Below, in pieces: positions 4,577 through 40,091 of a stretch of 64,000 bases of DNA. Position 1 is the stretch's first letter, and every line of letters starts with the position of its first letter. The stretch lies in assembly GCF_009914755.1 (NCBI RefSeq), contig NC_060936.1, one strand, 5' to 3'. The translations under genes were made by a program, and so were the position numbers. Under the pieces are notes generated by a model that saw nothing but the letters and a program-made list of their open reading frames with translations, was not told the DNA's origin and did no database searches. This DNA comes from the human T2T-CHM13v2.0 reference genome, Homo sapiens.

Positions 4577-6836
4577 AGATAAGGTTTGAATTTGTGTCCT
4601 CAACCAAATATCATGTCAAATTATAATGCCCATTGTTGGAGAAGGGGCCTGGTGGGAGGTGATTGGATCATGGGGGCAGATTTCCCCCTTGCTGTTCTCC
4701 TGATAGTGAGTGAGTTCTCATGAGATCTGGCTGTTAAATATGTATACCACCTCACCCTACTCTCTTCTTCCTCTTGCTCAAGCCTTGTAAGATATGCCTC
4801 CTTCCTCTTTGCCTTCCACTGTGTTTGTAAGTTTCCTGAGGCCTCCCAACCCATGCTTCCTGTACAGCCTGCAAAACTGTGAGCCAATTAAACCTCTTTT
4901 CTTTATGAACTACACAGTCTTAGGTAATTCTTTATAGCAATGTGAGAACTAATACAGAAAATTGGCACCAGGAGTGGGGCATTGCTGTAAAGATACCTGA
5001 AAATATGGAAGCAACTTTGGAACTGGATAATGGGCAGAGGTTGAAACAGTTTGGAGGGCTCAGAAGAAGACAGGAAGACGTGGGAAAGTTTGGAACTCAC
5101 TAGAGACTTTTTGAATGATTTTGACCAAAATGCTGATATTGATATGAACAGAGATGGCCAGGCTGATGAGTTCTCAGATGGAGATGGGAACTTATTTTGA
5201 ACTTTGAACTTGAGCGTGATGGTTTATGGTATCTGGCGGAAGAAATTTCTAAGCAACAAGTCATTCAAGATGTAGCCTGGCTGTTTCTAATAGTGTGTTC
5301 TCATATGTGTGAGATGATCTGAAATTGTATGAAACTGGAACTTAAATTTAAAAGGGAAGCAGAGTGTAAAAGTTTGGAAAATTCATAGCCTGGCCATGTG
5401 ATAGAAAAGAAAAACCCATTTTCGGGGAGGAATTCAAGTGGGTTGTAGAAATGTGCATAAGAAGAGCTGAATGTCAATAGCCAAGACAATGGGGAAAAAT
5501 GCCTTGAAGGCATTTTAGAGATCTTTTAGCAGCTCCTCCCATCATAGGCCTGGAGACCTAGGAGGGAAGCATGGTTTCATGGGCCATGCCCATAGCCCTG
5601 CTGCTCTGTGCAGTCTTGGGACATGGCACCCTGCATTGTGGCTGCCCTAGCTCCAGCAGTGGCTAAAAGGGGCCAAGGTATAGCTTGGGTCATAGCTTCA
5701 GAGGGTGTAAGCCATAACTCTTGGTGGCTTCCATGTGGTGTTAAGCCTGTGGGTGCAAAGAGGACAAGAGTTGAGGCTTGGGAGCCTACACCTAGATTTC
5801 AGAGGATGTGTGAAAATGCCTGGGTGTCCAGGTGGAAATCTGCTGCAGGGGCAGAGCCCTCATAGAGAATCTCTACTAGGGCAGTGTGGAGGGGAAATGT
5901 GGGGTTAGAGCCCCCACACAGAATCCCCTCTGGGATATTGCCAAGTGGGGCTGTGAGAAGAGGGCTACCATCCTCCAGACCCTAGAATTATAGATCCATT
6001 AACAGCTTGCAGCGTGTACCTAGAAAGCCACAAACACTCAATGCCAGACCTTGAGAGCAGCCATGGGAACTGAGCCCCCAAAGCTACAGGGGCAGAGCTG
6101 CCTAAGGCCTTGGGAACCTAACCCTTGGATTAGTGTGAGCTGGATGTAAGACATGGAGTCAAAGGAGGATATTCTGGAGTTTTAAGATTTAATCACTGCC
6201 CTGCTGGGTTTCAGACTTACATGGGGCCTGTAGTCCCTTTGTTTCAGCCAATTTCTCCCTTTTGGAATGGGAGTATTTACCCAATGCCTGTATCCCCATT
6301 CTATCTTGGAAGTAACTAACTTGTTTGGATTTTATAGGCTTATAGGTGGAAGAGGTTTGCCTTATCTCAGATGAGACTTTGGATTGTGGACTTTTGAGTT
6401 AATGCTGGAATGAGTTAAGACTTTAGGGGACTGCTGGGAAAGCATGATTGTATTTGCGATGGGAGAAGGACATGAAATCTCATTTTAAATTGCAATCCCC
6501 AGTGTTGGAGGAGGGCCTGGTGGAAGGTGATTGAATCATGGGGGTGGATTTCCCCCTTGCTGTTCTCATGATAGTGAATGAGTTCTCATGAGATCTGGCT
6601 GTTTAAATGTGTGTAGCACCTCCCCCTGCTCTTTTCTTCCTTCTGCTCCAGCCATGTAAGATGTGCCTCCTTCCTCTTTGCCTTCTGTTATGATTGTAAG
6701 TTTCCTGAGGCCTCCACAGCCATGCTTCCTGTACAGCCTATGGAACTGTGAGCCAATTAAACCTCTTTTCTTTAAATTTTCTAAATTACCCAGGTTCAGG
6801 TAGTTCTTTATAGCAATGCGAGAATAGACTAATATA
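4577..6836 (+). mobile_element. ERVL-MaLR provirus, MSTA/MSTB-like: 5'LTR 4577-4956, internal about 4957-6474, 5'-clipped 3'LTR about 6475-6836
   Basis: Two homologous direct LTRs ending ctaataca/ctaatata around a typical MaLR internal sequence. 5-bp TSD CCACC at 4572-4576 and 6837-6841. Inserted into an L2 fossil. Confidence 0.9.
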
Positions 6837-7570: not shown

Positions 7571-10114
7571 ATTAAAGTAAATGTCAGAAAAACAATATAA
7601 ACAAAACATTCTGGTGTTTCAGAGGGAAAGATCCCATCTGTTTATAGGAATTAGGAAAAAGAGTTGGCTCTTGAAATAGGATTAAGGAGTTTCCAAGGTA
7701 ATTCCATATGAATTCCAGAGGGGAAAGAAAGATTGTGTTGCCCAGTCATTTAGTTTTCTAATGGGTTTCATCACATGTGACCTGACCCCTCAGCCCTGGA
7801 CCTCATGGGACCCCCTTCTGTGAGCTCAGCTACTCTCCTGCTGTCTCTTCCCTCTCCTGCCTCAGGCACAATTAGCCTCCTGTTCTGCAAGTCTTCCTGG
7901 CTCTTATTTTTCTAAACAGGTCCTTCTTAGACTTTGCTTTCCCTACTCACAGCGAATCAGTTACATATATACTAACAAATGAATATAATAGATCACTATT
8001 TTGTGATACTCTTTAGATATTCTACAGTATCTGGTATATTACATTTATTGATTAAATATAACACCTGTGGTCATTTCTGTAAAATGGTTGGACAATAGGC
8101 TTTTAGTGTGCTATATGATGGCAATAATAGGCGATAATAGTATCAGCTACTTTTTGCCACTGGACATCCACTTATTTAATCTCCCACACTTGTAACATAT
8201 AAGGTATAAATTATTATCTTCAATTTAGTAAATAGAGGCCTAGGAAGTTTAATGATGTGCTCCAGCTCCTAAGTGTCAGACATGGGATTCACATCTTATT
8301 GTTTCTAACTCATGCTTTTCATTCTGCCAGGATTCTTGTCTATTGTGCCATTGTTTAAATAGAAAATATGATTTGGGTTTTCATTCCATGAATGAAAAAA
8401 AATGTCTTATTTAGAAGTAAGTAACATACTAGCATGCATATAAAAAATAAAGGTTGTAAAATCTGAGAAGTATAAGCACTGGTTATGATCATCTCATAAG
8501 GAAAATGTGAACAAGCTTGGGACTGAAAAAATTAGGCAAAGGAGAAAAAGCCAGAAAAAGAAGGGAGAAAGAGAGATTGATTTTGGAACATTTGGAGATA
8601 AAGCCTATAGAAAAGGCTAAAGAACTTACATATGTCCACCCTGGAGGATAGAGGGCTAAGAGGTGACTTAATAATTGGCTCTAATATGTGAATGGTCGTT
8701 ATGGGAAGGCTGCTCACCATTTCTCTGTCAACATCAAGGTCAGAGTAAGATAGATGGACTTAAATTACAGGAAGAAATTTCAGTTAATATAAGAAAGAAC
8801 TTCTTGACATAAAAGGCAATTAAACATTTTAATATGAAGTACTTAGGCTTGTGAAATCTTCATTCTTTGATATTCTTTAGAAATAAAATTTAAAATGTGC
8901 TCCCAAATTAATAAATTAAATTGGAGAACTACTGAAAAAATTCCTCCTGAATATTAACTTCACGTTACATAATAGTCAGATAATATAAAATTTACAGCTT
9001 ATCAGAAATTAATTTTGTATTTGCATATTTATGTTTGTATCATTAAATTTCTTTTTGTTATAAATATAGAAGTGTGAGTGGTTTAGAAAAGAACTACTAG
9101 CTTCTTAGGTAAACAGAAAAAATTTAAAAATAATTCCCATCTGTCTCTGAGTGGTCTACTGATACCTATTAAACATCATCAAAATAATTTCTAGATATAT
9201 TTTTGTTATTCCTTTTCTTTGTTACCAGACTTTGCTTTTGAAGCTAAATCAACATTATACTGGACCAGCAGCAATTTTAAGTCATTCTGTAAAGAAAATA
9301 CCTATTTGCCTTCATAAAGAAAATGTACATGGTGGGAGGAGATAGTTTTATTGATATTTTTGTGATAAATGCCTTTACCACTTACTGGTAAATTATTAAC
9401 TTGTGCATTTTGCTGATGGAGGCAAGTTTTCCTTTGCACACATATTTCACCGATTCATCATCATTTAATGGTTTCTTTTTATTTTTTCCTGTGCGAACCT
9501 TAACACTTAAAACAGCTAGTTTTCATACTAGAAACTTGCACTTCTCCCCATTATATGTCCATCTCTGATTTGGCATTTACTTGGTGAGACTGAAAGAAAA
9601 AGTCTGTATTTAATAAAAATAGGTAGCAGGTTATTGAATAGAGTAAGGAATAGATTAATCCTATTCAAAGGATTCTTGTTATCCTCTCTTGTCCCTCTTT
9701 GTGTCACATTGTATTGTTGTTAACTAATGGTTTAGATAGCTACTTTTGAATTCCTCTGTTGCACACAGTTTCTGTCTTTTTTACTTTGCTGAAAAGCTTA
9801 AGAAGGTGCAATGTTGGTTTTGACTCTATTCTTCTGCTTTCTTACGCTGGCTTTGTGAGAGCCAAAGTGGTGATCTCATGATATGAGAAGCTTACGGGTC
9901 AGAGCCATGTAACCCTTAGCTTGCAAAACTTGGCTGTAGTGAGATTCTGCTTTCACGGCTTTCAGAAATACTTCTACAGCTACAGTTGTTCTTGTCTTCT
10001 GCTTATGCAAAAAGCTTAGTTCTAATGACTTTTGCAGTGGGTTTATTTATGCTAGACTTCATCAGTAGTCATAATGAAAAATAAAAAGTTAGTATTTCAG
10101 TTAGTATAAATGGA

Positions 10115-12340: not shown

Positions 12341-12590
12341 GCCTTAACTACACTTACTTTTTCTTTTTTTTTTTAATTTATTATTATTTTACTTTAAGTT
12401 TCAGGGTACATGTGCACAATGTGCAGGTTAGTTACACATGTATACATGTGCCATGCTGGTGCGCTGCACCCACTAAATCGTCATCTAGCATTAGGTATAT
12501 CTCCTAATGCTATCCCTCCCCCCTCCCCCCACCCCAGAACAGTCCCCAGAGTGTGATGTTCCCCTTCCTGTGTCCATGTGTTCTCATTGT

Positions 12591-16422
<3,832 letters not shown>

Positions 16423-16485
16423 TATGATGTTAGCTGGTTATTTTGCTCGTTAGTTGATGCAGTTTCTTCCTAGCCTCGATGGTCT

Positions 16486-17500
16486 TTACATTTTGGCATG
16501 ATTTTGCAGCGGCTGGTACTGGTCGTTCCTTTCCATGTTTAGTGCTTCCTTCAGGAGCTCTTTTAGGGCAGGCCTGGTGGTGACAGAATCTCTCAGCATT
16601 TGCTTGTCTGTAAAGTATTTTATTTCTCCTTCACTTATGAAGCTTAGTTTGGCTGGATATGAAATTCTGGGTTGAAAATTCTTTTCTTTAAGAATGTTGA
16701 ATATTGGCCCCCACTCTCTTCTGGCTGGTAGAGTTTCTGCCGAGAGATCTGCTGTTAGTCTGATGGGCTTCCCTTTGTGGGTAACCCAACCTTTCCCTCT
16801 GGCTGCCCTTAACATTTTTTCCTTCATTTCAACTTTGGTGAATCTGACAATTATGTGTCTTGGAGTTGCTCTTCTCGAGGAGTATCTTTGTGGCGTTCTC
16901 TGTATTTCCTGAATCTGAATGTTGGCCTGCCTTGCTAGGTTGGGGAAGTTCTCCTGGATAATATCCTGCAGAGTGTTTTCCAACTTGGTTCCATTCTCCC
17001 CGTCACTTTCAGGTCACCAATCAGATGTAGATTTGGTCTTTTCACATAGTCCCATATTTCTTGGCGGCTTTACTCATTTCTTTTTATTCTTTTTTCTCTA
17101 AACTTCCTTTCTCACTTCGTTTCATTCATTTCATCTTCCATCGCTGAACCCTTTCTTCCAGTTGATCGCATCGGCTCCTGAGGCTTCTGCATTCTTCACG
17201 TAGTTCTCGAGCCTTGGTTTTCAGCTCCATCAGCTCCTTTAAGCACTTCTGTGTATTGGTTATTCTAGTTATACATTCTTCTAAACTTTTTTCAAAGTTT
17301 TAAACTTCTTTGCCTTTGGTTTGAATGTCCTCCAGTAGCTCGGAGTAATTTGATCATCTGAAGCCTTCCTCTCTCAGCTCGTCAAAGTCATTCTCCGTCC
17401 AGCTTTATTCCATTGCTGGTGAGGAACTGCGTTCCTTTGGAGGAGGAGAGGTGCTCTGCTTTTTAGAGTTTCCAGTTTTTCTGTTCTGTTTTTTCCCCAT
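16486..17500 (-). pseudogene. L1 ORF1p (RNA-binding chaperone), frameshifted
   Basis: ATG at 17500 and stop at 16486 give 1015 nt versus the canonical 1017. Single-base deletions near 17148 and 17014; only the C-terminal 165 aa are open. Confidence 0.9.
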
Positions 17501-18395
17501 CTTTGTGGTTTTATCTACTTTTGGTCTTTGATGATGGTGATGTACAGATGGGTTTTTGGTGTGGATGTCCTTTCTGTTTGTTAGTTTTCCTTCTAACAGA
17601 CAGGACCCTCAGCTGCAGGTCTGTTGGAGTACCTGGCCCTGTGAGGTGTCAGTCTGCTGCTAGGGGGTGCCTCCCAGTGAGGCTGTTTGGGGGTCAGGGG
17701 TCAGGGACCCACTTCAGGAGGCAGTCTGCCCGTTCTCAGATGTCCAGCTGTGTGCTGGGAGAACCACTGCTCTCTTCAAAGCTGTCAGACAGGGACACTT
17801 AAGTCTGCAGAGGTTACTGCTGTCTTTTTGTTTGTCTGTGCCCTGCCCCCAGAGGTGGAGCCTACAGAGGCAGGCAGGCCTCCTTGAGCTGTGGTGGGCT
17901 CCACCCAGTTCCAGCTTCCCTGCTGCTTTGTTTACCTAAGCAAGCCTGGGCAATGGCGGGCGCCCCTCCCCCAGTCTCGCTGCTGCCTTGCAGTTTGATC
18001 TCAGACTGCTGTGCTAGCAATCAGCGAGACTCCGTGGGCGTAAGACCCTCCGAGCCAGGTGCGGGATATAATCTCGTGGTGCGCCATTTTTTAAGCCCGT
18101 CGGAAAAGCGCAGTATTCGGGTGGGAGTGACCTGATTTTCCAGGTGCCGACCGTCACGCCTTTCTTTGACTAGGAAAGGGAACTCCCTGACCCTTTGCGC
18201 TTCCTGAGTGAGGCAATGCCTCGCCCTGCTTCTGCTTGCGCACGGTGCGCGCACCCACTGACCTGCGCCCACTCTCTGGCACTCCCTAGTGAGATGAACC
18301 CGGTACCTCAGATGGAAATGCAGAAATCACCTGGCTTCTGTGTTGCTCACGCTGGGAGCTGTAGACTGGAGCTGTTCCTATTCGGCCATCTTCTT
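17501..18395. promoter_or_regulatory. L1 5'UTR bidirectional promoter (sense promoter fires on -, antisense promoter fires on +, i.e. in the TRHDE direction)
   Basis: The most CpG-rich stretch of the window. YY1 core AAGATGGCC on the - strand at 18384-18392. Promoter activity is inferred from the family, not shown for this copy. Confidence 0.7.
17953..18135 (+). other. L1 ORF0 (antisense 5'UTR ORF), 60 aa, shortened by CGA>TGA
   Basis: MAGAPPPVSLLPCSLISDCCASNQRDSVGVRPSEPGAGYNLVVRHFLSPSEKRSIRVGVT*, with strong Kozak gcaATGg. The canonical ORF0 donors are retained after nt 106 (18058|GTGCGG) and nt 191 (18143|GTGCCG). Confidence 0.85.
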
Positions 18396-19734
18396 CACTT
18401 ACTTTTTCAATCCTTTGTTTCTTTACCAAATTATAGCTTCTTAGCATCAGAAAATTTTTGCCTGAAACAGTGACATCTTTTTTAGAAATGGAGCTCTGGG
18501 TTCGATCTAAGTCTTAAAGTAATAAGGTTCACGCATCAACATAGCACAATTTTATCATCTATATTCTCTTTTATTACCGTATTAAAAGCTTGAATGAGAT
18601 AAAACTGGTATTAACTTAAAATTATACTTTTTTCACATTAACTGTTATTTATTCAGTGTTAGCTATGTTCCCAGAGTTTTACCAGATATCATGCAATTTA
18701 AACTTTAAGCTGAAAGATAGTTAAATTATTTGGCCCAGACTCATAATAGCTCGTGAGTAGCAGAACCAACATTTCAGCTCAACCTTCCTGAATCCAAATT
18801 CTGCCCTGTGTGTGATTGCCTGATCATATAGTCAAGTAGGTATTGACTTTCACAGCAGAGAATACTATACATGTATCCAAATAATTTTTCCTTTCATCTG
18901 ACCATTTATTTCTTCCCTTTTTGGAAATAACTTTCAGATGCAATTTCATTCTTTCCTACAAAACCAGTCTCATGATTTCATAATTCCCAAAGAGTCTACC
19001 TTGATGAGATACTTTAATTTGCATTGCCTCCCTTCTCTTCAATCCCTATTTTACCCTATTTAGTATTTCCTGGCTTACCCTCTGAATTTGAGCCAACAGC
19101 ATAAGGAGCTCAGAAAAGCGCTATGCCAAGGCTATCTTGGAGCTCAGAGACCCTGAGTGGAGATGAGCATGGTGTAGAGGGGAGAGTGTGAGTCGCAGCA
19201 ATTCTGAGAAACATGGTTTGGCTTCTACAGAGTAGAGCACATCCAAGCAAACCAACTTGTGTCGTTTAGTTGTGTGCTGCCTCTCTGCTGTCATTTTACA
19301 ATAGGATGCAGTTAGCTCAGTGCCATAAAAATATCTGGCTTAAAGTAGAGAATTTTTGGTATGTATTCCCCTGGTAAGTACTATAAGCCCAAGTAAAGCA
19401 TGACCAACCAGCTGAATATCTGTGTTTTGCTTACATATTCCCCAAACTGTTTTCCAGCTCCACGATTTTAAGATGAAATGTGCAAACATTTATTGCCACA
19501 TAATTTTCCTTCTGGAAGGGGGTCTGTCACAGCAGGAACCTTGCTACTAAATTGGAGCCGTTGAAACTATTTCAGTAGTCAAATTTGTTAAGAGTAAAAG
19601 CAAGAGTTTTAAGTGCTGTCTAATGCCTAAAAATGTTTTTCCAGTTTGAAATGAGTGTGGTGGTAGGGTTAGGGAAAAGTTAGCATGTTTTGAGATAGTT
19701 ACGTCTGAAATAATAACCTCAGTTAACATGTATA

Positions 19735-34407: not shown

Positions 34408-34985
34408 ATCCACATACAGTAATAAAAATATCACTATTTTCAATTTTGCTAGCCTTTTGTTCTTACTGAACCTGCCATAAAGAAGCTTTATGTCTCCTAG
34501 ACCATAAACATGTCCTATTCTGCAAGTTCATATCTGTCTTCTATTTTATCCCTAATCCTGGGAATATGGGTCAGGCATTTCAACTATGTCCCATTGAATT
34601 AGGTTTTCCTTCTTCCTCTTCTGTGAGCATCTCACTGATTCCAAACTCTCAGTAACTCTAAGAATTTCCTTTATTTTTCTAAGTTCTTGCTATACCCCAT
34701 GTTTCTAGAGACAGTCATGTAAATATTTTGAATTGGGATCACAAGAGGTCATCTAAATTCGTTTAAATTATTGATTTTGGAGGTGGGTATAAGTGGGTTT
34801 CTAATTCTGGCTCCATTGTTTACTACCCATGTCAATTTCTACAAGGTGTGTAAACTTTATGCCTCAATTTTCTGACCTGATAAATAAAGATAGTAATATT
34901 TTCCTTTTGATATTATGGCCTTAGCATGTAGTACAAATAGTTAATGAATGACAGATACATTATTGATGACTTCAGCTAGGACTTA

Positions 34986-35359
34986 TGGTGTGGTTTGGCC
35001 CTGTTTCCCCACCCAAATCTCATATCGAATTGTCATCCCCACTTGTCAAGGGAGGGGACCTGTAATCCCCACATGTCAAGGAAGGGAACTGATTGGATTA
35101 TGGGGGCGGTTTCCCCCATACTGTTACTCATGATAGTAATCGAATTCACATGAGATCTGATGGTTTCATAAGTGGTAGTTTTTCCTGCGTGCTCACACTC
35201 ACAAGAAGGTGCTTGCTTTCCCTTTGCCTTCCACCATGATGGTAAGTTTCCTGAGGCTTCCCCAGCCATGTGGAACTGTGAGTCAACTAAACCTCTTTCC
35301 TTTATGAATCTCCAAGTCTTGGGTAGTTCTTTATAGCAGTGTGAGAACGGACTAGTACA
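34986..35359 (+). mobile_element. Solo MaLR LTR, THE1(C/D)-like, 374 bp
   Basis: TG...CA termini (tggtgtggtttgg ... ggactagtaca), typical THE1/MST LTR body, and 5-bp TSD ACTTA at 34981-34985 and 35360-35364. Confidence 0.9.
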
Positions 35360-38300
35360 ACTTACAACTTTTCTACACCTTTCCACGTCTTAAACTCCTA
35401 ATTACGTTTTCAATGGGTTACTTCAAACCTACTTCCAGTCTTTCCAACTCATGTTATCTTCAGACCACATCTCCTATATTATTGGAAAGTGATGGTCCAT
35501 CACTTGTTCAATATTTTTTGAGAGCCTGCTATGTGCCAGGAACAGTTTTTGGCAATGAGCGTATAATGGTGACAGACCAATTCCCCACCTTGATGGAGAT
35601 TACAATCTATTTTGTGCAATGTACTTTCTTAACCTCTGTGCTTTACACTTCAACATCTCTTATGTATCTTTTCTTATTTCTTATTTCCCTTTTCTGCCTC
35701 AGTCCTGTCTCAGAGTAGATTGTTGTTATTCTTTCCCAAGATTAATCTAAATTCTTATTAGCTTTCCTGGAATCTTGCTTCAATAATGATTTCTTGATTG
35801 ACTGTGTCTTCAGTTTCTATCTCCACTGGGTCATCTTTTGCTTTGCAGAAAAAAATTTCTCCCATTTCTACCAAAGAAAATCACAAACAAACCTTTCATG
35901 TGAATTTGCTTCTAGCTTTCTCTTTTCTTCCTTCTGTTTTCACTTGGCTTTCACACCCACAAGTCTATTTAAATATCTCTCTCTTAAATATGGCCTACTA
36001 TGGCCTTCTCTTAGCTATTATTTTCCTTGAAATCTGAAGCACTAATTCTTAAAACATGTCTTCTATGACACTGCTTATACCCAGTTTGCCTTCTGTTTTT
36101 TATCACAATATGTCATTTTTTTCTCTTAATGTCATTTCTTCGTTGATTTCAATGGATATTTGTTGAGCGCCTGTTACAAGCACTGAAGTGCAAGTCATAA
36201 AACAGAATAAACAAATAGAAAACAATTATACGATTCTGTTTTCTATTTTTCTTACTAAAGCCTTAGAACTTTTCTCTTGGCAGACTCTCCCACTCTAATT
36301 CCCAATTTATCTATTCAATCGTAACTTTCCACTCAATTTTATTCCTGTGGTTGAACTTGCCCTCTGTTCCTTGGGTTCTATACCTGTTCCTCAAACAGCA
36401 CATTTACAAACAGATGTTATTATATTCACCTCACCAGCACTTTCTTCTAAATTCTGTATATCTGCTAATGTCATCATCCACTCTAGCTTTAAAATACAAA
36501 CTTATCTTTCCATTTCTTAAACCTATCTCTGATTTTTATCATTGTTATCATTTGTTTCTGGTTACTTTACTTCTTCCTTGGAGTATCACAGTTAAGTCCC
36601 GACTTTTTTGAAAACCAATTTTCCAAATTCCTTATCCCTGGTATTCAAAGTCCTCTAAAAACTGTCTCAATCTTATTTTCCATCTAATCTTCCATTTTCT
36701 GGTTTTATTTACTGTCTTTCCATATAAACTTCCCTACTTGTGATTTCCACTTTCACGCCTATTTGACCACATAAAGTCTATTCCTGTCATAACATGCAAA
36801 TGCCTTTTGTTTATCTTAACTCATGGAACCCTTATCCATCCTCCAAGGTTCAACACAAATAACACTTCTTTAGACCCTCGTTATCCTTTGTCCCTCCAGA
36901 TATAACCTCTCCCTCTTCTGAAAACAGTAGAATACTTTCTCTTGTCATTCATTTTATTTTGCTTTGCATCTCATCTCACTTATGAGATTTTGAAATCCTC
37001 AAAGACAGAGACTTGTGTCATTTAGGATACCAAACATACCACCTTATTCAATAAGCATGCACTAAAGAAAGAAATTAGTTGAGAAGATCTCCCTCTCCAA
37101 AAGTGAGGATTTATCACTGAAGTATACCAGTGAGGCAATAGACTGTATATCCTGGCTGAATAGCTCCTCTACAAGAACACAAAGTAATTGCTATGCATGC
37201 AGAATTTTCTCTTTCTCTGTTATCCATGTCTTACATTAAGGGAGCACCTCCTCTGAGCCAGACATAGGAAGAGGGTGGTACCAAGTCATGAGGACACAGT
37301 TTTTTCTCTGGGCATGTTTAATACCTCTGAGACTGATGTGCATGCAAATGGCTACAATGTAAAATAAAAGAAAATTTAGGTGGGAACTTACATTAAAAAG
37401 ATATTCCAGATATAAAAATTGCTAAATGATGAATGGGTTTATAAGCATACTTTTGTGGAATATTCTCTATGAAACTTTAGAAAAATCAAGTAGATATCCT
37501 AATATATCCTTGAATGTTAGTTTAGCAAACAGTGATGAGTTTTCTAGAGCAAGTCTCAAAAATTATTAAATCTTGCAGAAATAGTATGTCTACTTTTCAT
37601 AAAGCTACTCGGGCTTCCTAAATGTCCAGTTTGTTTGACTGGGGCTGGAGTTTTGAATCACAAGGTAATGTAAGTTACAATATTGTAAACAAAGTTTGCT
37701 TGATAAACAAATGTTTTAAAGGCATGATGAAAAAGGATTCTGAGTTTTCTTAAAAAAAGTTTATAATGAGCTCTGCCTGTGTTAGGGGTTGTGATCTTTG
37801 TTATAATCCATACATAGTATGTGCTTAGTATATGTTGGCTAAACCATGACAGTTGGAGAGCCCATCTGTCTATGAAGTTCTATAAAATAAGGATTTTTGA
37901 ATTTTAGCTTTGGAAAGAAAAGGCTAGTTAAACATAGAAGAGTGCATGCCACTCCAGAGGCTATTAAAATGTTCAGATGGGTAACATAGTCATATTTTCT
38001 AAAACTTAATTGAGTTATACAATATAATATAATCAGGAGCTAAGTGATATTCTATAACTTTTGAATACTGATTGTACTTCTAGTTTTTCCTTCCTGTTAC
38101 CACTCTCTCCAGCTTAATTCAGACAGGAAAATTGGTACATTCTTTATGATCAGAAAGCATTCTTGTGTCATTAGACCATGCTAGATTAATAGTTTTTATA
38201 AACTGACAAGAGACCAAGTCATCATTACCTGGGGGGAAACACCTAAATCATCTGAAGATGGCTATTCAGTGCTGAAGGAAAGTTTGAGTTGACTGCTTTA

Positions 38301-39324
38301 GATACTAAGTCTCAATTCCCAGTTGGCAATGGTCAGGTTTGCTGAAAAATGGACAGTTTCCACCCTCGGGATGGGTCGATTATACTGGGAAATATATAGG
38401 AGGAGAGCTTGTCAAGGCAATTCAAGGAACAGAGCTGATATGTTCTAAAGGGAATTCTAATCTAGTCCTCAGATTGAATCATAAATGCTTATGTTTCATG
38501 GTCATATACAAATGTGCAGAAGATAAAGAGGAAGAAGCTAAAGAAAGAGCAATGAATGGAAGGTGTGAGAAGAAAAAAAATCAGAAAAGGCATAAAACTA
38601 TTATATTTCAGCCTATCATTTGTTGAGATGAGAATAAAATACTGACTTGGGAGCAATTTTGGTGGTGGTTGAAATTTTTTGATACACATCTTTAATGGTG
38701 ATTCATAGTCTGAGTATTGCACTACATTCAAGTCCCAGAATTCTAACAAATCATTCTAGTAACAAACTGTGGAAATTCATTGTTGTGTTGCTGGACTGGA
38801 CAGCAGTCCAGTCCCTGGCTGAATGATTCTATATGTGATTCTTACGATTTTCTTGTAAAAAGAGACATCTTGCAAGAAATGAATTATTGCAGTTGTACAT
38901 TTGTACTGAGTATGAAATGGGATGTGTAGTCATAAAGCAATTTGTAACCCCGAATCCAGGCTACCATTTGTATTTAAACATTCATTGCTTACAATCCACT
39001 GCTCCATACCAATTCAATTTGGTCAAGTGTCTTCTTGAAGGCTTATTTATATTTTACATGAAGATTTGTTATCATCCATACTTAATTGTAATTCCTTGGA
39101 ATGTTTCATATTGATTACGTACCTACCTTTTGCATTCATGTTGTTCTGCCATATTATAATAATGGTTCTCAAGATGAGAGAGACTCTTTCAAATTAGTAT
39201 TTTCTTCTATTTCTCAAGTTATTTATATTGATCTCATATGTTTTACTTGCATATGGATGTATGCAGCTAAATACAACCTCAAAAAGAAATAGGAAATGAA
39301 AATGATTAGACAATTTGAAATAAT

Positions 39325-39550
39325 ACTGGTAGCTAACACTCCTATATGGCTTACTATTTTTCAGACCTAGTTCAAACTGCTTTACATGTATTGAGTTATT
39401 TAAGCTTTAGAACAGCCATATTAAATATAACTACTATTAACTACACTTTACAAGGAGAAAAGTAAGGAGCAGAGAGCTGAAATATTCTTACTGAGTAAAC
39501 ATGGTGAGTAAGTAGCAGACTTAAGATTTGAACCCAGACAGTCTGACTTC
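39325..39550 (-). mobile_element. MIR
   Basis: gtagctaacact...ttactat...tgctttacatgtatt...agtaagtagcagacttaagatttgaacccagacagtctgact. Confidence 0.65.
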
Positions 39551-40025
39551 TTGGTACTCTACTCTCTACTTCCACAACTAAACTTTTCTTGGTTAAGGAG
39601 TACATTCAGTACCTATTTTACTTCAAAGTTATATTTTAATATGATTATTTATTAACATGGGTATCCTTCCCTGAGCAAATTATGAGATTGTAAGTAAAAG
39701 AATCATGTTTTATTAAATTTGTCATATATAGTGTTCAATAAAATATTGAGTACTCCTGAATTACAGCTTATCATTGCCCTGAGATATTCTTTCTAGAGGA
39801 CTTCCATTTTGTGGTTGTAGGTTTTACACAAAACTTTAAAATTCACAAGACCAAAAAAATGAAATTGTTATCACTAAGTTGGATGTTGTTTTCATGATAC
39901 TGCTGTTTCTTAATTATTTTTGAAAATAGAATAGCATGAATGAAGTAGACTAGATTTGAGTAAAACAACTTTACAATCATGATACTTTGTTGAAATTCTG
40001 TTCTTTTTATTATTCTTTCCTATAG

Positions 40026-40091
40026 GGTGCTGCTTTAATAAGAATGCTGGCTAATTTTATGGGCCATTCAGTTTTCCAGAGGGGTTTGCAA
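40026..40091 (+). CDS. TRHDE: TRHDE internal coding exon (66 nt, phase 0/0): GAALIRMLANFMGHSVFQRGLQ
   Basis: Polypyrimidine tract then TAG acceptor (ttctttcctatag|GGT) and donor CAA|gtaagt. The translation matches the M1 aminopeptidase segment after the catalytic-Tyr 'YxKG' motif and matches human TRH-DE as I recall it. Confidence 0.96.

What the first reader, a model, noticed from the sequence alone, without database searches (positions are those of the whole stretch)
34986..40091. Solo THE1 LTR arranged as an in-frame, possibly DUX4-driven alternative first exon of TRHDE
Seen: the LTR is sense to TRHDE and 4.7 kb upstream of the phase-0 exon at 40026. In order it carries TGATTGGATTA at 35090-35100 (TAATCCAATCA on the - strand), a TATA-position element CATAAG at 35167-35172, and an ATG-free leader. 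CCACC-ATG-ATG at 35231-35241 is followed immediately by GTAAGT (donor 35241|35242). The related MST LTRs in this window have T at -1 of this donor; here it is G, giving a near-consensus site. The LTR poly(A) signal is degraded to ACTAAA (35286-35291). Splicing 35241 to 40026 gives MM-GAALIRMLANF..., in frame, with both ATGs having -3 A. Established: TAAYYYAATCA is the DUX4 motif, DUX4 activates MaLR LTRs as alternative promoters, and THE1B drives CSF1R in Hodgkin lymphoma. Inference: an isoform lacking the type II membrane anchor, the HEXXH zinc site and the catalytic Tyr, i.e. a cytosolic, inactive C-terminal half of TRH-DE, possibly in cleavage-stage embryo, FSHD muscle, placenta, testis or tumours.
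Basis: partly seen in the sequence, partly recalled or inferred. Interest (0 to 1): 0.72.

Follow-up and report, generated by a model that had tools for sequence, protein, structure and literature searches.

The report
Old solo THE1 LTR inside TRHDE

Summary
The element is a real solo LTR, window 34986-35359 (374 nt, TG...CA). It is sense to TRHDE, lies in intron 6, and is flanked by a perfect 5-nt duplication, ACTTA.

It belongs to the ERVL-MaLR THE1 group. It is closest to LTRs named THE1D, and is not THE1B, THE1A or MSTA; THE1C could not be excluded. Its own divergence of about 0.107 substitutions per site gives roughly 45-70 My. Print puts THE1 in simians only.

The minus-strand 11-mer is an exact printed DUX4 consensus. 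The donor's G at -1 is rare in the family: 119 of 8,241 exact 17-mers. The in-frame arithmetic holds.

Function is unsupported:
- No RefSeq transcript starts in the LTR, and no paper links TRHDE to an LTR.
- 283 copies share the motif in the same context.
- 0 of 9 chr12 copies with this donor are annotated exon ends.
- The TATA-place hexamer is off the family norm.
- Only 38 of 12,642 THE1D copies were DUX4-activated in print.
- The product would begin inside the M1 catalytic domain.

Verdict: an ordinary, probably silent solo LTR.

The parts
34981..34985 (.). Left copy of the 5-nt target-site duplication (ACTTA)
   Evidence: Read directly. The flanks printed are identical to 35360-35364.
34986..35359 (+). 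Solo LTR of an ERVL-MaLR element of the THE1 group (THE1D-like). 374 nt, TG...CA ends, sense to TRHDE, in intron 6.
   Evidence: 8,381 first-look candidates; the 39 scored non-self matches are 77-81% identical over nearly the full length. Searches give distances to print-named anchors and an NJ tree; no partner LTR of this group in the window.
35031..35089 (+). Two tandem units of about 30 nt inside the LTR (35031-35059 and 35061-35089, 86% alike)
   Evidence: The second unit is present in 28 of 29 of the target's best hits. It is absent from all 10 D, 10 B and 10 M copies and from all 9 named anchors.
35090..35100 (-). Exact match to the printed DUX4 consensus TAAT[T/C][T/C]AATCA (CC flavour), reversed relative to the LTR
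   Evidence: It is the only site with <=2 mismatches in the LTR on either strand. The same place carries the consensus on the minus strand in 9 of 41 THE1D-like relatives. The 17-mer context occurs 283 times in the genome.
35167..35172 (+). TATA-place hexamer (CATAAG), off the family norm
   Evidence: TATAA is at this place in 31 of 41 relatives but not in the target, and the target's first letter is shared by 1 of 41; 4 of 7 print-named active LTR promoters have TATAA here.
35191..35191 (+). Place homologous to the annotated transcript starts of two LTR-driven genes (WNT5A THE1D, SQOR THE1A). No start is annotated here.
   Evidence: mapped through the alignment; no RefSeq start in the window.
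35236..35241 (+). ATG ATG directly before the donor
   Evidence: The first ATG is a family trait (41, 37 and 37 of 41 share its letters). The second arises from the rare G at 35241.
35242..35247 (+). GTAAGT donor-like site. With the G at 35241 it matches the textbook 9-mer (recalled) at 8 of 9 places.
   Evidence: GTAAGT is at this place in 29 of 41 THE1D-like and 6 of 11 MSTA-like copies. The segment is absent from all 15 THE1B/A copies. It is not an annotated exon end.
35286..35291 (+). Poly(A)-place hexamer (ACTAAA), not a canonical signal
   Evidence: AATAAA or ATTAAA is at this place in 32 of 41 relatives but not in the target, and the target's second letter is shared by 1 of 41.
35360..35364 (.). 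Right copy of the target-site duplication (ACTTA)
40026..40091 (+). TRHDE exon 7 of NM_013381.3 (host gene): phase 0, codons 575-596, GAALIRML...
   Evidence: RefSeq table. One search gives the translation. Peptidase_M1 PF01433 profile positions 162-183 of 218.

Best explanation
A retrovirus-like MaLR element of the THE1 group inserted in sense orientation into what is now TRHDE intron 6, in an early simian ancestor some 45-70 million years ago. Recombination between its two LTRs then left a single LTR with its 5-nt target-site duplication.

The LTR keeps the family layout. In order it has a homeobox-type site about 100 nt before the start place, a TATA place, a start place near 35191, a short leader, an ATG, a GTAAGT and a poly(A) place.

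Three single-letter departures from the family norm mark this copy. One makes the 11-mer an exact reverse-strand DUX4 consensus. One gives the donor a G at -1. One each hits the TATA-place and poly(A)-place hexamers.

Shown: identity, bounds, family group and the letters. Inferred: that it is now a silent passenger that neither starts nor ends TRHDE messages in any annotated transcript. The in-frame 'first exon' is then a by-product of family traits plus neutral drift.
For: Bounds and solo state:
- TG...CA ends, ACTTA on both sides, and no partner LTR of the group in the window.

Family:
- K2P to named anchors: THE1D 0.259 (WNT5A, named in print) and 0.282 (IL2RB, name recalled); THE1B 0.291-0.384; THE1A 0.379; MSTA 0.380.
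- Mean distance to groups: own neighbours 0.211, THE1D neighbours 0.269, THE1B neighbours 0.288, MSTA neighbours 0.358. NJ places the target among copies intermixed with both THE1D anchors, apart from the THE1B/A and MSTA clades.
- It has the 9-nt segment with GTAAGT that all 15 THE1B/A copies lack. At two motif places its letters are shared by 0 of 15 THE1B/A copies but by 38 and 40 of 41 THE1D-like copies.

Age:
- Own branch 0.107, or 0.099 without CpG, which is typical of its group (median 0.106). That gives 49 My at 2.2e-9 and 71 My at 1.5e-9 per site per year (both rates recalled).
- Print: THE1D, C, B and A occur only in simians and their fossils are older than 40 My (PMC10735291). THE1 is dated at 55 Mya (PMC1794541 Table 1).

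Silence:
- 0 of 5 RefSeq TRHDE models start in the window.
- 0 of 9 chr12 copies with the same donor 17-mer are exon ends among 9,877 annotated rows with exons.
- 24 of 25 near-consensus donors in the window are unannotated.
- The TATA-place and poly(A)-place hexamers are both off the norm.
- Base rates in print: 38 of 12,642 THE1D and 43 of 9,874 THE1C copies were DUX4-activated.
Against: - The DUX4 11-mer is exact, and all four flavours bound and activated in print.
- It sits at the same LTR place as the plus-strand site of THE1B copies that are DUX4-responsive in print, such as HEY1.
- The donor is stronger than in 98.6% of family copies with this 17-mer.
- TATAA is not strictly needed: 3 of 7 print-named active LTR promoters lack it.
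- RefSeq would not see a transcript confined to cleavage-stage embryos, oocytes or DUX4-positive muscle.
- No expression, ChIP or CAGE data could be consulted here, and the supplementary tables of the DUX4 papers are closed.
- The subfamily (THE1D or THE1C) is unresolved. The age rests on a clock with about twofold scatter: own branches of four THE1B anchors run from 0.063 to 0.245.
Confidence: 0.85

Rival explanations
1. DUX4 binds the reverse-strand site. Transcription starts near 35191, and a 51-nt first exon ending at 35241 splices to exon 7. The mRNA encodes MM + residues 575-1069 of TRH-DE: a cytosolic fragment without the anchor, the zinc site and the catalytic Tyr.
For: - Exact printed consensus.
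- The start place agrees with two annotated LTR-driven genes.
- ATG-free leader.
- Donor matches at 8 of 9 places, with a rare G at -1.
- Phase 0 and no premature stop expected.
- The poly(A)-place hexamer is non-canonical.
- DUX4-dependent THE1B-HEY1 and other MaLR first exons are in print (PMC3836709).
Against: - In print 1.2% of 63,795 bound sites start transcripts, about 0.8% for single-motif peaks and 2.7% of bound THE1D. This LTR has one motif.
- The TATA-place first letter is shared by 1 of 41 relatives.
- At least 283 LTR copies share the motif context and 119 share the donor, so the arrangement is not singular.
- No RefSeq model.
- TRHDE occurs 0 times in the main text of a DUX4 embryo-activation paper (PMC8990217), and no relevant paper holds TRHDE with DUX4.
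- The protein would start at position 162 of 218 of the catalytic-domain profile. It would also be an ectodomain made in the cytosol, with 12 putative N-glycosylation sites in print. It is therefore likely unstable (inference).
Confidence: 0.02
2. The LTR is active without DUX4, in one of two ways. It could be an oocyte or early-embryo LTR-initiated transcription unit. Or it could be a promoter or enhancer de-repressed by inflammation or tumours, as described for MSTA and THE1 LTRs. The effect would be on transcription or methylation across TRHDE rather than through a protein.
For: - MSTA and THE1C LTRs start oocyte transcripts that splice into genes (bioRxiv 10.1101/723254).
- THE1B and THE1D LTRs are activated in Hodgkin cell lines, for example the THE1D 20 kb upstream of WNT5A (PMC6558280).
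- The target has the family layout and a good donor.
Against: - No annotated start and no RefSeq functional element at the LTR; the only two in the window are at 17520-18684.
- The TATA-place hexamer is off the norm.
- No paper holds TRHDE with LTR in this sense.
- Only a small share of copies is active in any of these settings (for DUX4; the other settings rest on passages only).
Confidence: 0.06
3. The strong donor makes the LTR part of an occasional cryptic internal exon of TRHDE, paired with an upstream cryptic acceptor. The result would be out-of-frame or decayed messages rather than a new first exon.
For: - The donor matches at 8 of 9 places in a sense-oriented intronic LTR.
- Print describes selection against sense LTRs in introns because of their splice and poly(A) signals (PMC1794541).
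Against: - No such exon in 5 RefSeq models.
- 0 of 9 chr12 copies with this donor are exonised, three of them lying sense inside genes.
- I did not score acceptors upstream of the donor.
Confidence: 0.03

Closest known systems
THE1D LTR 20 kb upstream of WNT5A (promoter in a Hodgkin cell line; PMC6558280, passages)
   Same: It is the nearest print-named anchor (K2P 0.259). It has GTAAGT at the donor place. The RefSeq gene start lies in that LTR and maps to target coordinate 35191.
   Different: It has TATAA and a canonical poly(A) hexamer at the homologous places. It has no DUX4 consensus and lacks the second unit of the 30-nt duplication. It lies upstream of its gene, not in an intron, and its use is documented.
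THE1B-HEY1 DUX4-dependent alternative first exon (PMC3836709, passages)
   Same: A MaLR LTR with a double-homeobox site at the same LTR place. The chimeric mRNA encodes an N-terminally shortened host protein.
   Different: It is THE1B. The site is the plus-strand MaLR 11-mer and TATAA is present. The LTR lacks the GTAAGT segment. It is 40 kb upstream of the gene, was verified by RT-PCR and 5'-RACE, and loses only 38 residues.
MSTA-initiated oocyte transcript at RHOBTB3 (bioRxiv 10.1101/723254, passages)
   Same: A sense MaLR LTR that starts a transcript splicing into downstream host exons.
   Different: It belongs to the MSTA clade (K2P 0.380 to the target). It has no DUX4 consensus and its donor place is not GTAAGT. 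Its activity is documented in human and macaque oocytes.
TRH-DE*, the truncated dominant-negative isoform (review PMC7225337, passages)
   Same: A catalytically inactive product of the same gene.
   Different: It is membrane-bound and truncated at the C-terminal side by exon-14 extension. It was described in rat and dimerises with the full enzyme.

Membership tests
ERVL-MaLR solo LTR | TG...CA termini and a length of about 350-390 nt | tested here: met
   374 nt, starts TG and ends CA. Relatives are 354-397 nt.
ERVL-MaLR solo LTR | 5-nt target-site duplication directly abutting both ends (the size for this class is recalled) | tested here: met
   ACTTA at 34981-34985 and 35360-35364.
ERVL-MaLR solo LTR | No internal part and no partner LTR | tested here: met
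   The only other matches in the window are at 4654-4949 and 6528-6834, at 69-71% identity, and belong to another element. No masked repeat of 100 nt or more lies between 35356 and 51515.
THE1 group (as against MSTA) | Closer to print-named THE1 LTRs than to print-named MSTA | tested here: met
   K2P 0.259-0.291 to the nearest THE1D and THE1B anchors against 0.380 to MSTA. Mean to groups is 0.269 and 0.288 against 0.358, and the clades are separate in NJ. The window's own MSTA-like LTRs are 69-71% identical to the target but 81-86% to MSTA neighbours.
THE1B / THE1A | Shares their structure at the donor place and their plus-strand MaLR 11-mer | tested here: not met
   The 9-nt segment with GTAAGT is absent in all 15 THE1B/A copies and present in the target. 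The target's letters at motif places 2 and 7 are shared by 0 of 15.
THE1D (as against THE1C) | Closer to named THE1D than to named THE1C over the full length | tested here: inconclusive
   The only THE1C-named piece obtained is a 138-nt 3' fragment upstream of TM4SF5 (listed in PMC4419796). It also has the GTAAGT segment and does not discriminate. The target's sub-lineage carries a duplication that both THE1D anchors lack.
THE1 group | Insertion present in simians only | not testable with these tools
   No primate genomes are on hand. Print gives the family distribution only.
DUX4-activated MaLR promoter (type described in PMC3836709) | DUX4 double-homeobox motif in the LTR | tested here: met
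   TAATCCAATCA on the minus strand equals the printed consensus, CC flavour. It is the single site in the LTR.
DUX4-activated MaLR promoter (type described in PMC3836709) | DUX4 occupancy and a DUX4-dependent transcript starting in the LTR | not testable with these tools
   No ChIP or RNA data are on hand and the paper's Table S1 is closed. No paper holds TRHDE with DUX4 in this sense (listing only).
LTR-derived alternative first exon of a host gene | An annotated or published transcript whose first exon lies in the LTR and splices to the host exon | tested here: not met
   0 of 5 RefSeq TRHDE models. Position 72513241 is not an exon end in any of 9,877 chr12 rows with exons. Searches found no paper.

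The most novel reading that the evidence does not exclude
This copy is one of at least 283 MaLR LTRs in which a single-letter variant of the family's standard 11-mer yields an exact, reverse-oriented DUX4 consensus. It would be one of very few that also carry a near-consensus donor right after an ATG. In DUX4-positive cells (cleavage-stage embryo, FSHD muscle, testis) it would fire and give an in-frame TRHDE mRNA for an anchorless, zinc-site-less fragment.
Probability: 0.03. Interest if true: 0.45.

Novelty: already known. Interest (0 to 1): 0.15.

Why it matters
As it stands this is one of tens of thousands of THE1/MST solo LTRs, and it teaches nothing new about TRHDE.

If the LTR did fire, it would add a primate-specific, N-terminally truncated TRH-DE product to a gene whose promoters are unmapped (PMC7225337).

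A smaller by-product may matter more. In the THE1D-like and MSTA-like copies sampled, the homeobox place holds a non-consensus 11-mer that a one-letter variant turns into a reverse-strand DUX4 consensus. That variant occurs in 9 of 41 aligned relatives and in 283 of 3,036 exact 17-mers. This may bear on the lower DUX4 occupancy printed for THE1D (11%) and MSTA (3%) than for THE1B and THE1C (about 30%). That link is inference and was not tested here.

Tried and rejected
Naming by overlap of best-hit lists. The top-40 lists for the target, the IL2RB THE1D LTR, the CSF1R THE1B LTR and the RHOBTB3 MSTA LTR share no place. The tool scores only 40 of 8,000-10,000 candidates, so this says little, and I dropped it in favour of distances.

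THE1C anchor. DNAH7 is named THE1C in print without a place. The only MaLR LTRs within 30 kb upstream point away from the gene, so I did not use them. The TM4SF5 fragment was too short. The IL23R and THOC5 starts and 15 kb upstream of GLIS3 held no matching LTR.

Within-group distances as a clock. MSTA neighbours (0.160) come out 'younger' than THE1D neighbours (0.174) and the target's neighbours (0.208), against the printed order. Best-hit sets are biased to the least-changed copies, so I used own-branch lengths instead.

Papers. One search was badly designed: TRHDE was not required, and the 20 listed papers hold it 0 times. The sarcoidosis THE1B paper has none of my six terms. PMC2231382 lists only MSTA exons in other genes.

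Not done. I used the textbook 9-mer (recalled) and counts instead.

Rejected ideas. I had recalled that the target's 11-mer was a triple-mutated THE1B-type site. The shares show that two of those letters are the norm of its own group.

I translated no retroviral gene and did not read the inner part of the MSTA-like element.

Full report
WHAT IS THERE

- TGATTGGATTA at 35090-35100.
- CATAAG at 35167-35172.
- CCACC ATG ATG at 35231-35241.
- GTAAGT at 35242-35247.
- ACTAAA at 35286-35291.
- The TRHDE exon at 40026-40091, behind a pyrimidine-rich ...ctatag.

The repeat runs from 34986 (TG) to 35359 (CA), 374 nt. It is flanked on both sides by ACTTA, at 34981-34985 and 35360-35364. That is the signature of an LTR-element insertion reduced to one LTR by recombination.

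The window holds no partner LTR of the same group. The only other matches, at 4654-4949 and 6528-6834 with 69-71% identity, belong to a different element. The RefSeq soft-mask table lists only 35203-35356 as a piece of 100 nt or more.

FAMILY

A search of the reference genome gave 8,381 first-look candidates. The 39 scored non-self matches cover nearly the whole LTR at 77-81% identity. No tool here names repeats, so I located LTRs that papers name and compared them.

Named anchors used:
- THE1D, 20 kb upstream of WNT5A (PMC6558280, passages).
- THE1B at CSF1R and 1.2 kb upstream of TNFRSF11A (same paper).
- THE1B about 40 kb upstream of HEY1 (PMC3836709, passages).
- THE1B at CRH (PMC6166974, passages).
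- THE1A at the SQOR start (PMC10735291, Results read whole).
- MSTA about 25 kb upstream of RHOBTB3 (bioRxiv 10.1101/723254, passages).
- An LTR holding the IL2RB gene start, whose THE1D name I recall from a 2011 paper that I did not see.

The anchors were placed by BLAST.

K2P distances from the target:

| Anchor | K2P |
|---|---|
| WNT5A THE1D | 0.259 |
| IL2RB THE1D | 0.282 |
| Four THE1B anchors | 0.291-0.384 |
| THE1A | 0.379 |
| MSTA | 0.380 |

I then added ten best neighbours of each of the IL2RB, CSF1R and RHOBTB3 anchors. The target's mean distance is 0.211 to its own 29 neighbours, 0.269 to THE1D neighbours, 0.288 to THE1B neighbours and 0.358 to MSTA neighbours. In a neighbour-joining tree the THE1B/A and MSTA sets form separate clades. 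The target sits among copies intermixed with both THE1D anchors.

Structure agrees. The target has the 9-nt segment that contains GTAAGT. That segment is absent in all 15 THE1B/A copies. GTAAGT itself stands at that place in 29 of 41 THE1D-like and 6 of 11 MSTA-like copies.

THE1C could not be excluded. The only THE1C-named piece I could get is a 138-nt fragment upstream of TM4SF5 (listed in PMC4419796). It also has the segment and does not discriminate.

The target's sub-lineage is marked by the second unit of a 30-nt tandem duplication (35061-35089). That unit is present in 28 of 29 of its neighbours and absent in all 30 other group members and all 9 anchors. So the name is: ERVL-MaLR, THE1 group, THE1D-like, subfamily not settled. 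Inner genes were not needed and not read.

AGE

The target's own branch, measured against pairs of its neighbours, is 0.107 substitutions per site (0.099 without CpG sites). That is typical of the group, whose median is 0.106 and range 0.063-0.129. At 2.2e-9 per site per year this is 49 My, and at 1.5e-9 it is 71 My; both rates are recalled.

The clock is coarse. Four THE1B anchors have own branches from 0.063 to 0.245. Two of them are shared by Old and New World monkeys in print. The LTR pair of the MSTA-like element in the same window differs by K2P 0.161.

Print says THE1D, C, B and A occur only in simians, arose within the last 70 My, and are fossils older than 40 My (PMC10735291). THE1 is dated at 55 Mya and MST at 75 Mya (PMC1794541, Table 1). 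My estimate is 45-70 My. The orthologous locus in other primates could not be checked.

THE SIGNALS, ONE BY ONE

DUX4 site.
- PMC4730607 (passages) prints the ChIP consensus TAAT[T/C][T/C]AATCA. It shows that all four flavours bind, compete and activate, with CT the strongest. Its 'CC' probe holds the exact minus-strand 11-mer of the window.
- The usual MaLR 11-mer printed there is a weaker near-match on the plus strand. I find it in 6 of 15 THE1B/A copies and 1 of 41 THE1D-like copies.
- In the target's group the 11-mer letters are the family norm at 10 of 11 places. The tenth place is shared by 14 of 41. The reverse-strand consensus is present at this place in 9 of 41 relatives, 0 of 15 THE1B/A and 0 of 11 MSTA-like copies.
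- Genome-wide, 283 of 3,036 exact 17-mers with either pyrimidine at that place carry the target's letter.
- In the window the consensus occurs once against 0.82 expected. The LTR has no second site within two mismatches.

TATA place.
- TATAA stands here in 31 of 41 relatives but not in the target, whose first letter is shared by 1 of 41.
- Of seven LTRs named in print as promoters, four have TATAA and three do not. So this lowers the chance of promoter use but does not exclude it.

Start place.
- The RefSeq gene starts of WNT5A and SQOR lie inside their LTRs, and both map to target coordinate 35191. The IL2RB start maps to 35132.
- From 35173 to 35235 there is no ATG.

Donor.
- ATG|GTAAGT matches the textbook 9-mer (recalled) at 8 of 9 places.
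- At -1 the relatives have T in 38, G in 2 and A in 1 of 41. Genome-wide, 119 of 8,241 exact 17-mers have G.
- Such donors are common decoys. GGTAAGT occurs 5 times in the window against 6.3 expected. 25 plus-strand sites match at >=8 of 9 places and only one is an annotated exon end.
- None of the 9 chr12 copies of the G-type 17-mer is an exon end in 9,877 annotated rows with exons, although three lie sense inside genes.

Poly(A) place.
- A canonical hexamer stands here in 32 of 41 relatives but not in the target.

FRAME AND PRODUCT

The annotated CDS before the exon at 40026 is 1,722 nt, so the exon is phase 0 and begins at codon 575. A donor after ATG ATG is therefore in frame. So would be the family's next GT at 35278, which lies 42 nt after the ATG.

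The in-frame reading follows from a family-wide ATG. Its letters are shared by 41, 37 and 37 of 41 relatives.

The annotated protein has 1,069 residues, against 1,024 in print, because the annotated start lies 45 codons further up. HEICH is at 485-489 and the Tyr of ...IAYKK|GAALIRML is at 572, three residues before the exon border.

Scanned exon by exon:
- Exons 1-2 match Peptidase_M1_N.
- Exons 3-8 match Peptidase_M1. Exon 7 covers profile positions 162-183 of 218 and exon 8 covers 185-205.
- Exon 13 matches ERAP1_C.
- Exon 9 matched nothing, and exons 10-12 and 14-19 were not scanned.

But the product would start inside the catalytic fold. It would also be an ectodomain made in the cytosol, with 12 putative N-glycosylation sites in print. 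I infer that it would be unstable.

IS IT USED?

- None of the five RefSeq TRHDE models starts in the window. One Gnomon model has another alternative first exon far upstream.
- The only RefSeq functional elements in the window are two hESC enhancer features at 17520-18684.
- Papers: TRHDE with DUX4 gave 4 papers, 3 listed, none on LTRs by title. TRHDE with LTR gave 4 papers, 3 listed, on other subjects. The 15 papers listed hold TRHDE 0 times. A DUX4 embryo paper has TRHDE 0 times in its main text. I saw listings and abstract starts only. Supplementary tables, where a ChIP peak or junction would be listed, are closed.
- Base rates in PMC3836709 (section 6 part 1 read; passages elsewhere): 738 of 63,795 bound sites start transcripts; the rate is about 0.8% for single-motif peaks. 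For THE1D, 1,386 of 12,642 copies are bound and 38 activated. For THE1C, 3,214 of 9,874 are bound and 43 activated.

COMPARISON AND VERDICT

The arrangement works like the printed THE1B-HEY1 and THE1D-WNT5A cases on paper. It fails the one defining test of an LTR-derived first exon that I could run, which is an annotated or published transcript.

The known inactive TRH-DE isoform, TRH-DE*, is truncated at the other end and is membrane-bound.

The feature is real, old and of a known kind. The proposed function is a reasonable but unsupported guess. Interest is low.

Noticed in passing
window 4578-6834 (+): A full-length MSTA-like MaLR element, sense to TRHDE. Its two LTRs (about 4606-4948 and 6475-6824) are 84.6% identical (K2P 0.161). 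They are 81-86% identical to neighbours of the print-named MSTA LTR. The inner part was not read.
   Followed up: partly
window 35061-35089; loci L002-L030: The second unit of a 30-nt tandem duplication marks the target's sub-lineage. It is present in 28 of 29 of the target's neighbours, and in 0 of 30 other group members and 0 of 9 named anchors. I could not tell which named subfamily this is.
   Followed up: partly
L036 449-839 and 7520-7909 (upstream of RHOBTB3): The MSTA LTR named in print as an oocyte promoter exists twice, 99% identical and 7.07 kb apart. This looks like a young local duplication rather than the two LTRs of one old element.
   Followed up: no
L085 (TRHDE exon 1): The RefSeq CDS in T2T gives 1,069 codons, against 1,024 residues in print. 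The annotated start lies 45 codons further up, in a Lys/Glu-rich stretch.
   Followed up: no
G000 C5, about 21.49-21.59 Mb: Six equally scoring THE1B LTR matches are spaced about 20.3 kb apart. The LTR lies inside a tandemly repeated unit.
   Followed up: no
window 12350-18684: Two RefSeq 'NANOG-H3K27ac-H3K4me1 hESC enhancer' features (17520-18684) abut a 5.3-kb masked repeat (12350-17680) and two shorter masked pieces. I did not look at them.
   Followed up: no
window 1006, 19373, 32693, 35241, 51237: All five GGTAAGT matches in the window are on the plus (gene-sense) strand and none on the minus strand. The total is as expected by chance.
   Followed up: no
genome-wide: THE1D-like and MSTA-like LTRs carry a non-consensus 11-mer at the place where THE1B has its plus-strand DUX4-type site. 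A one-letter variant, found in 283 of 3,036 exact 17-mers, makes it a reverse-strand consensus. This may relate to the lower DUX4 occupancy printed for THE1D and MSTA.
   Followed up: partly
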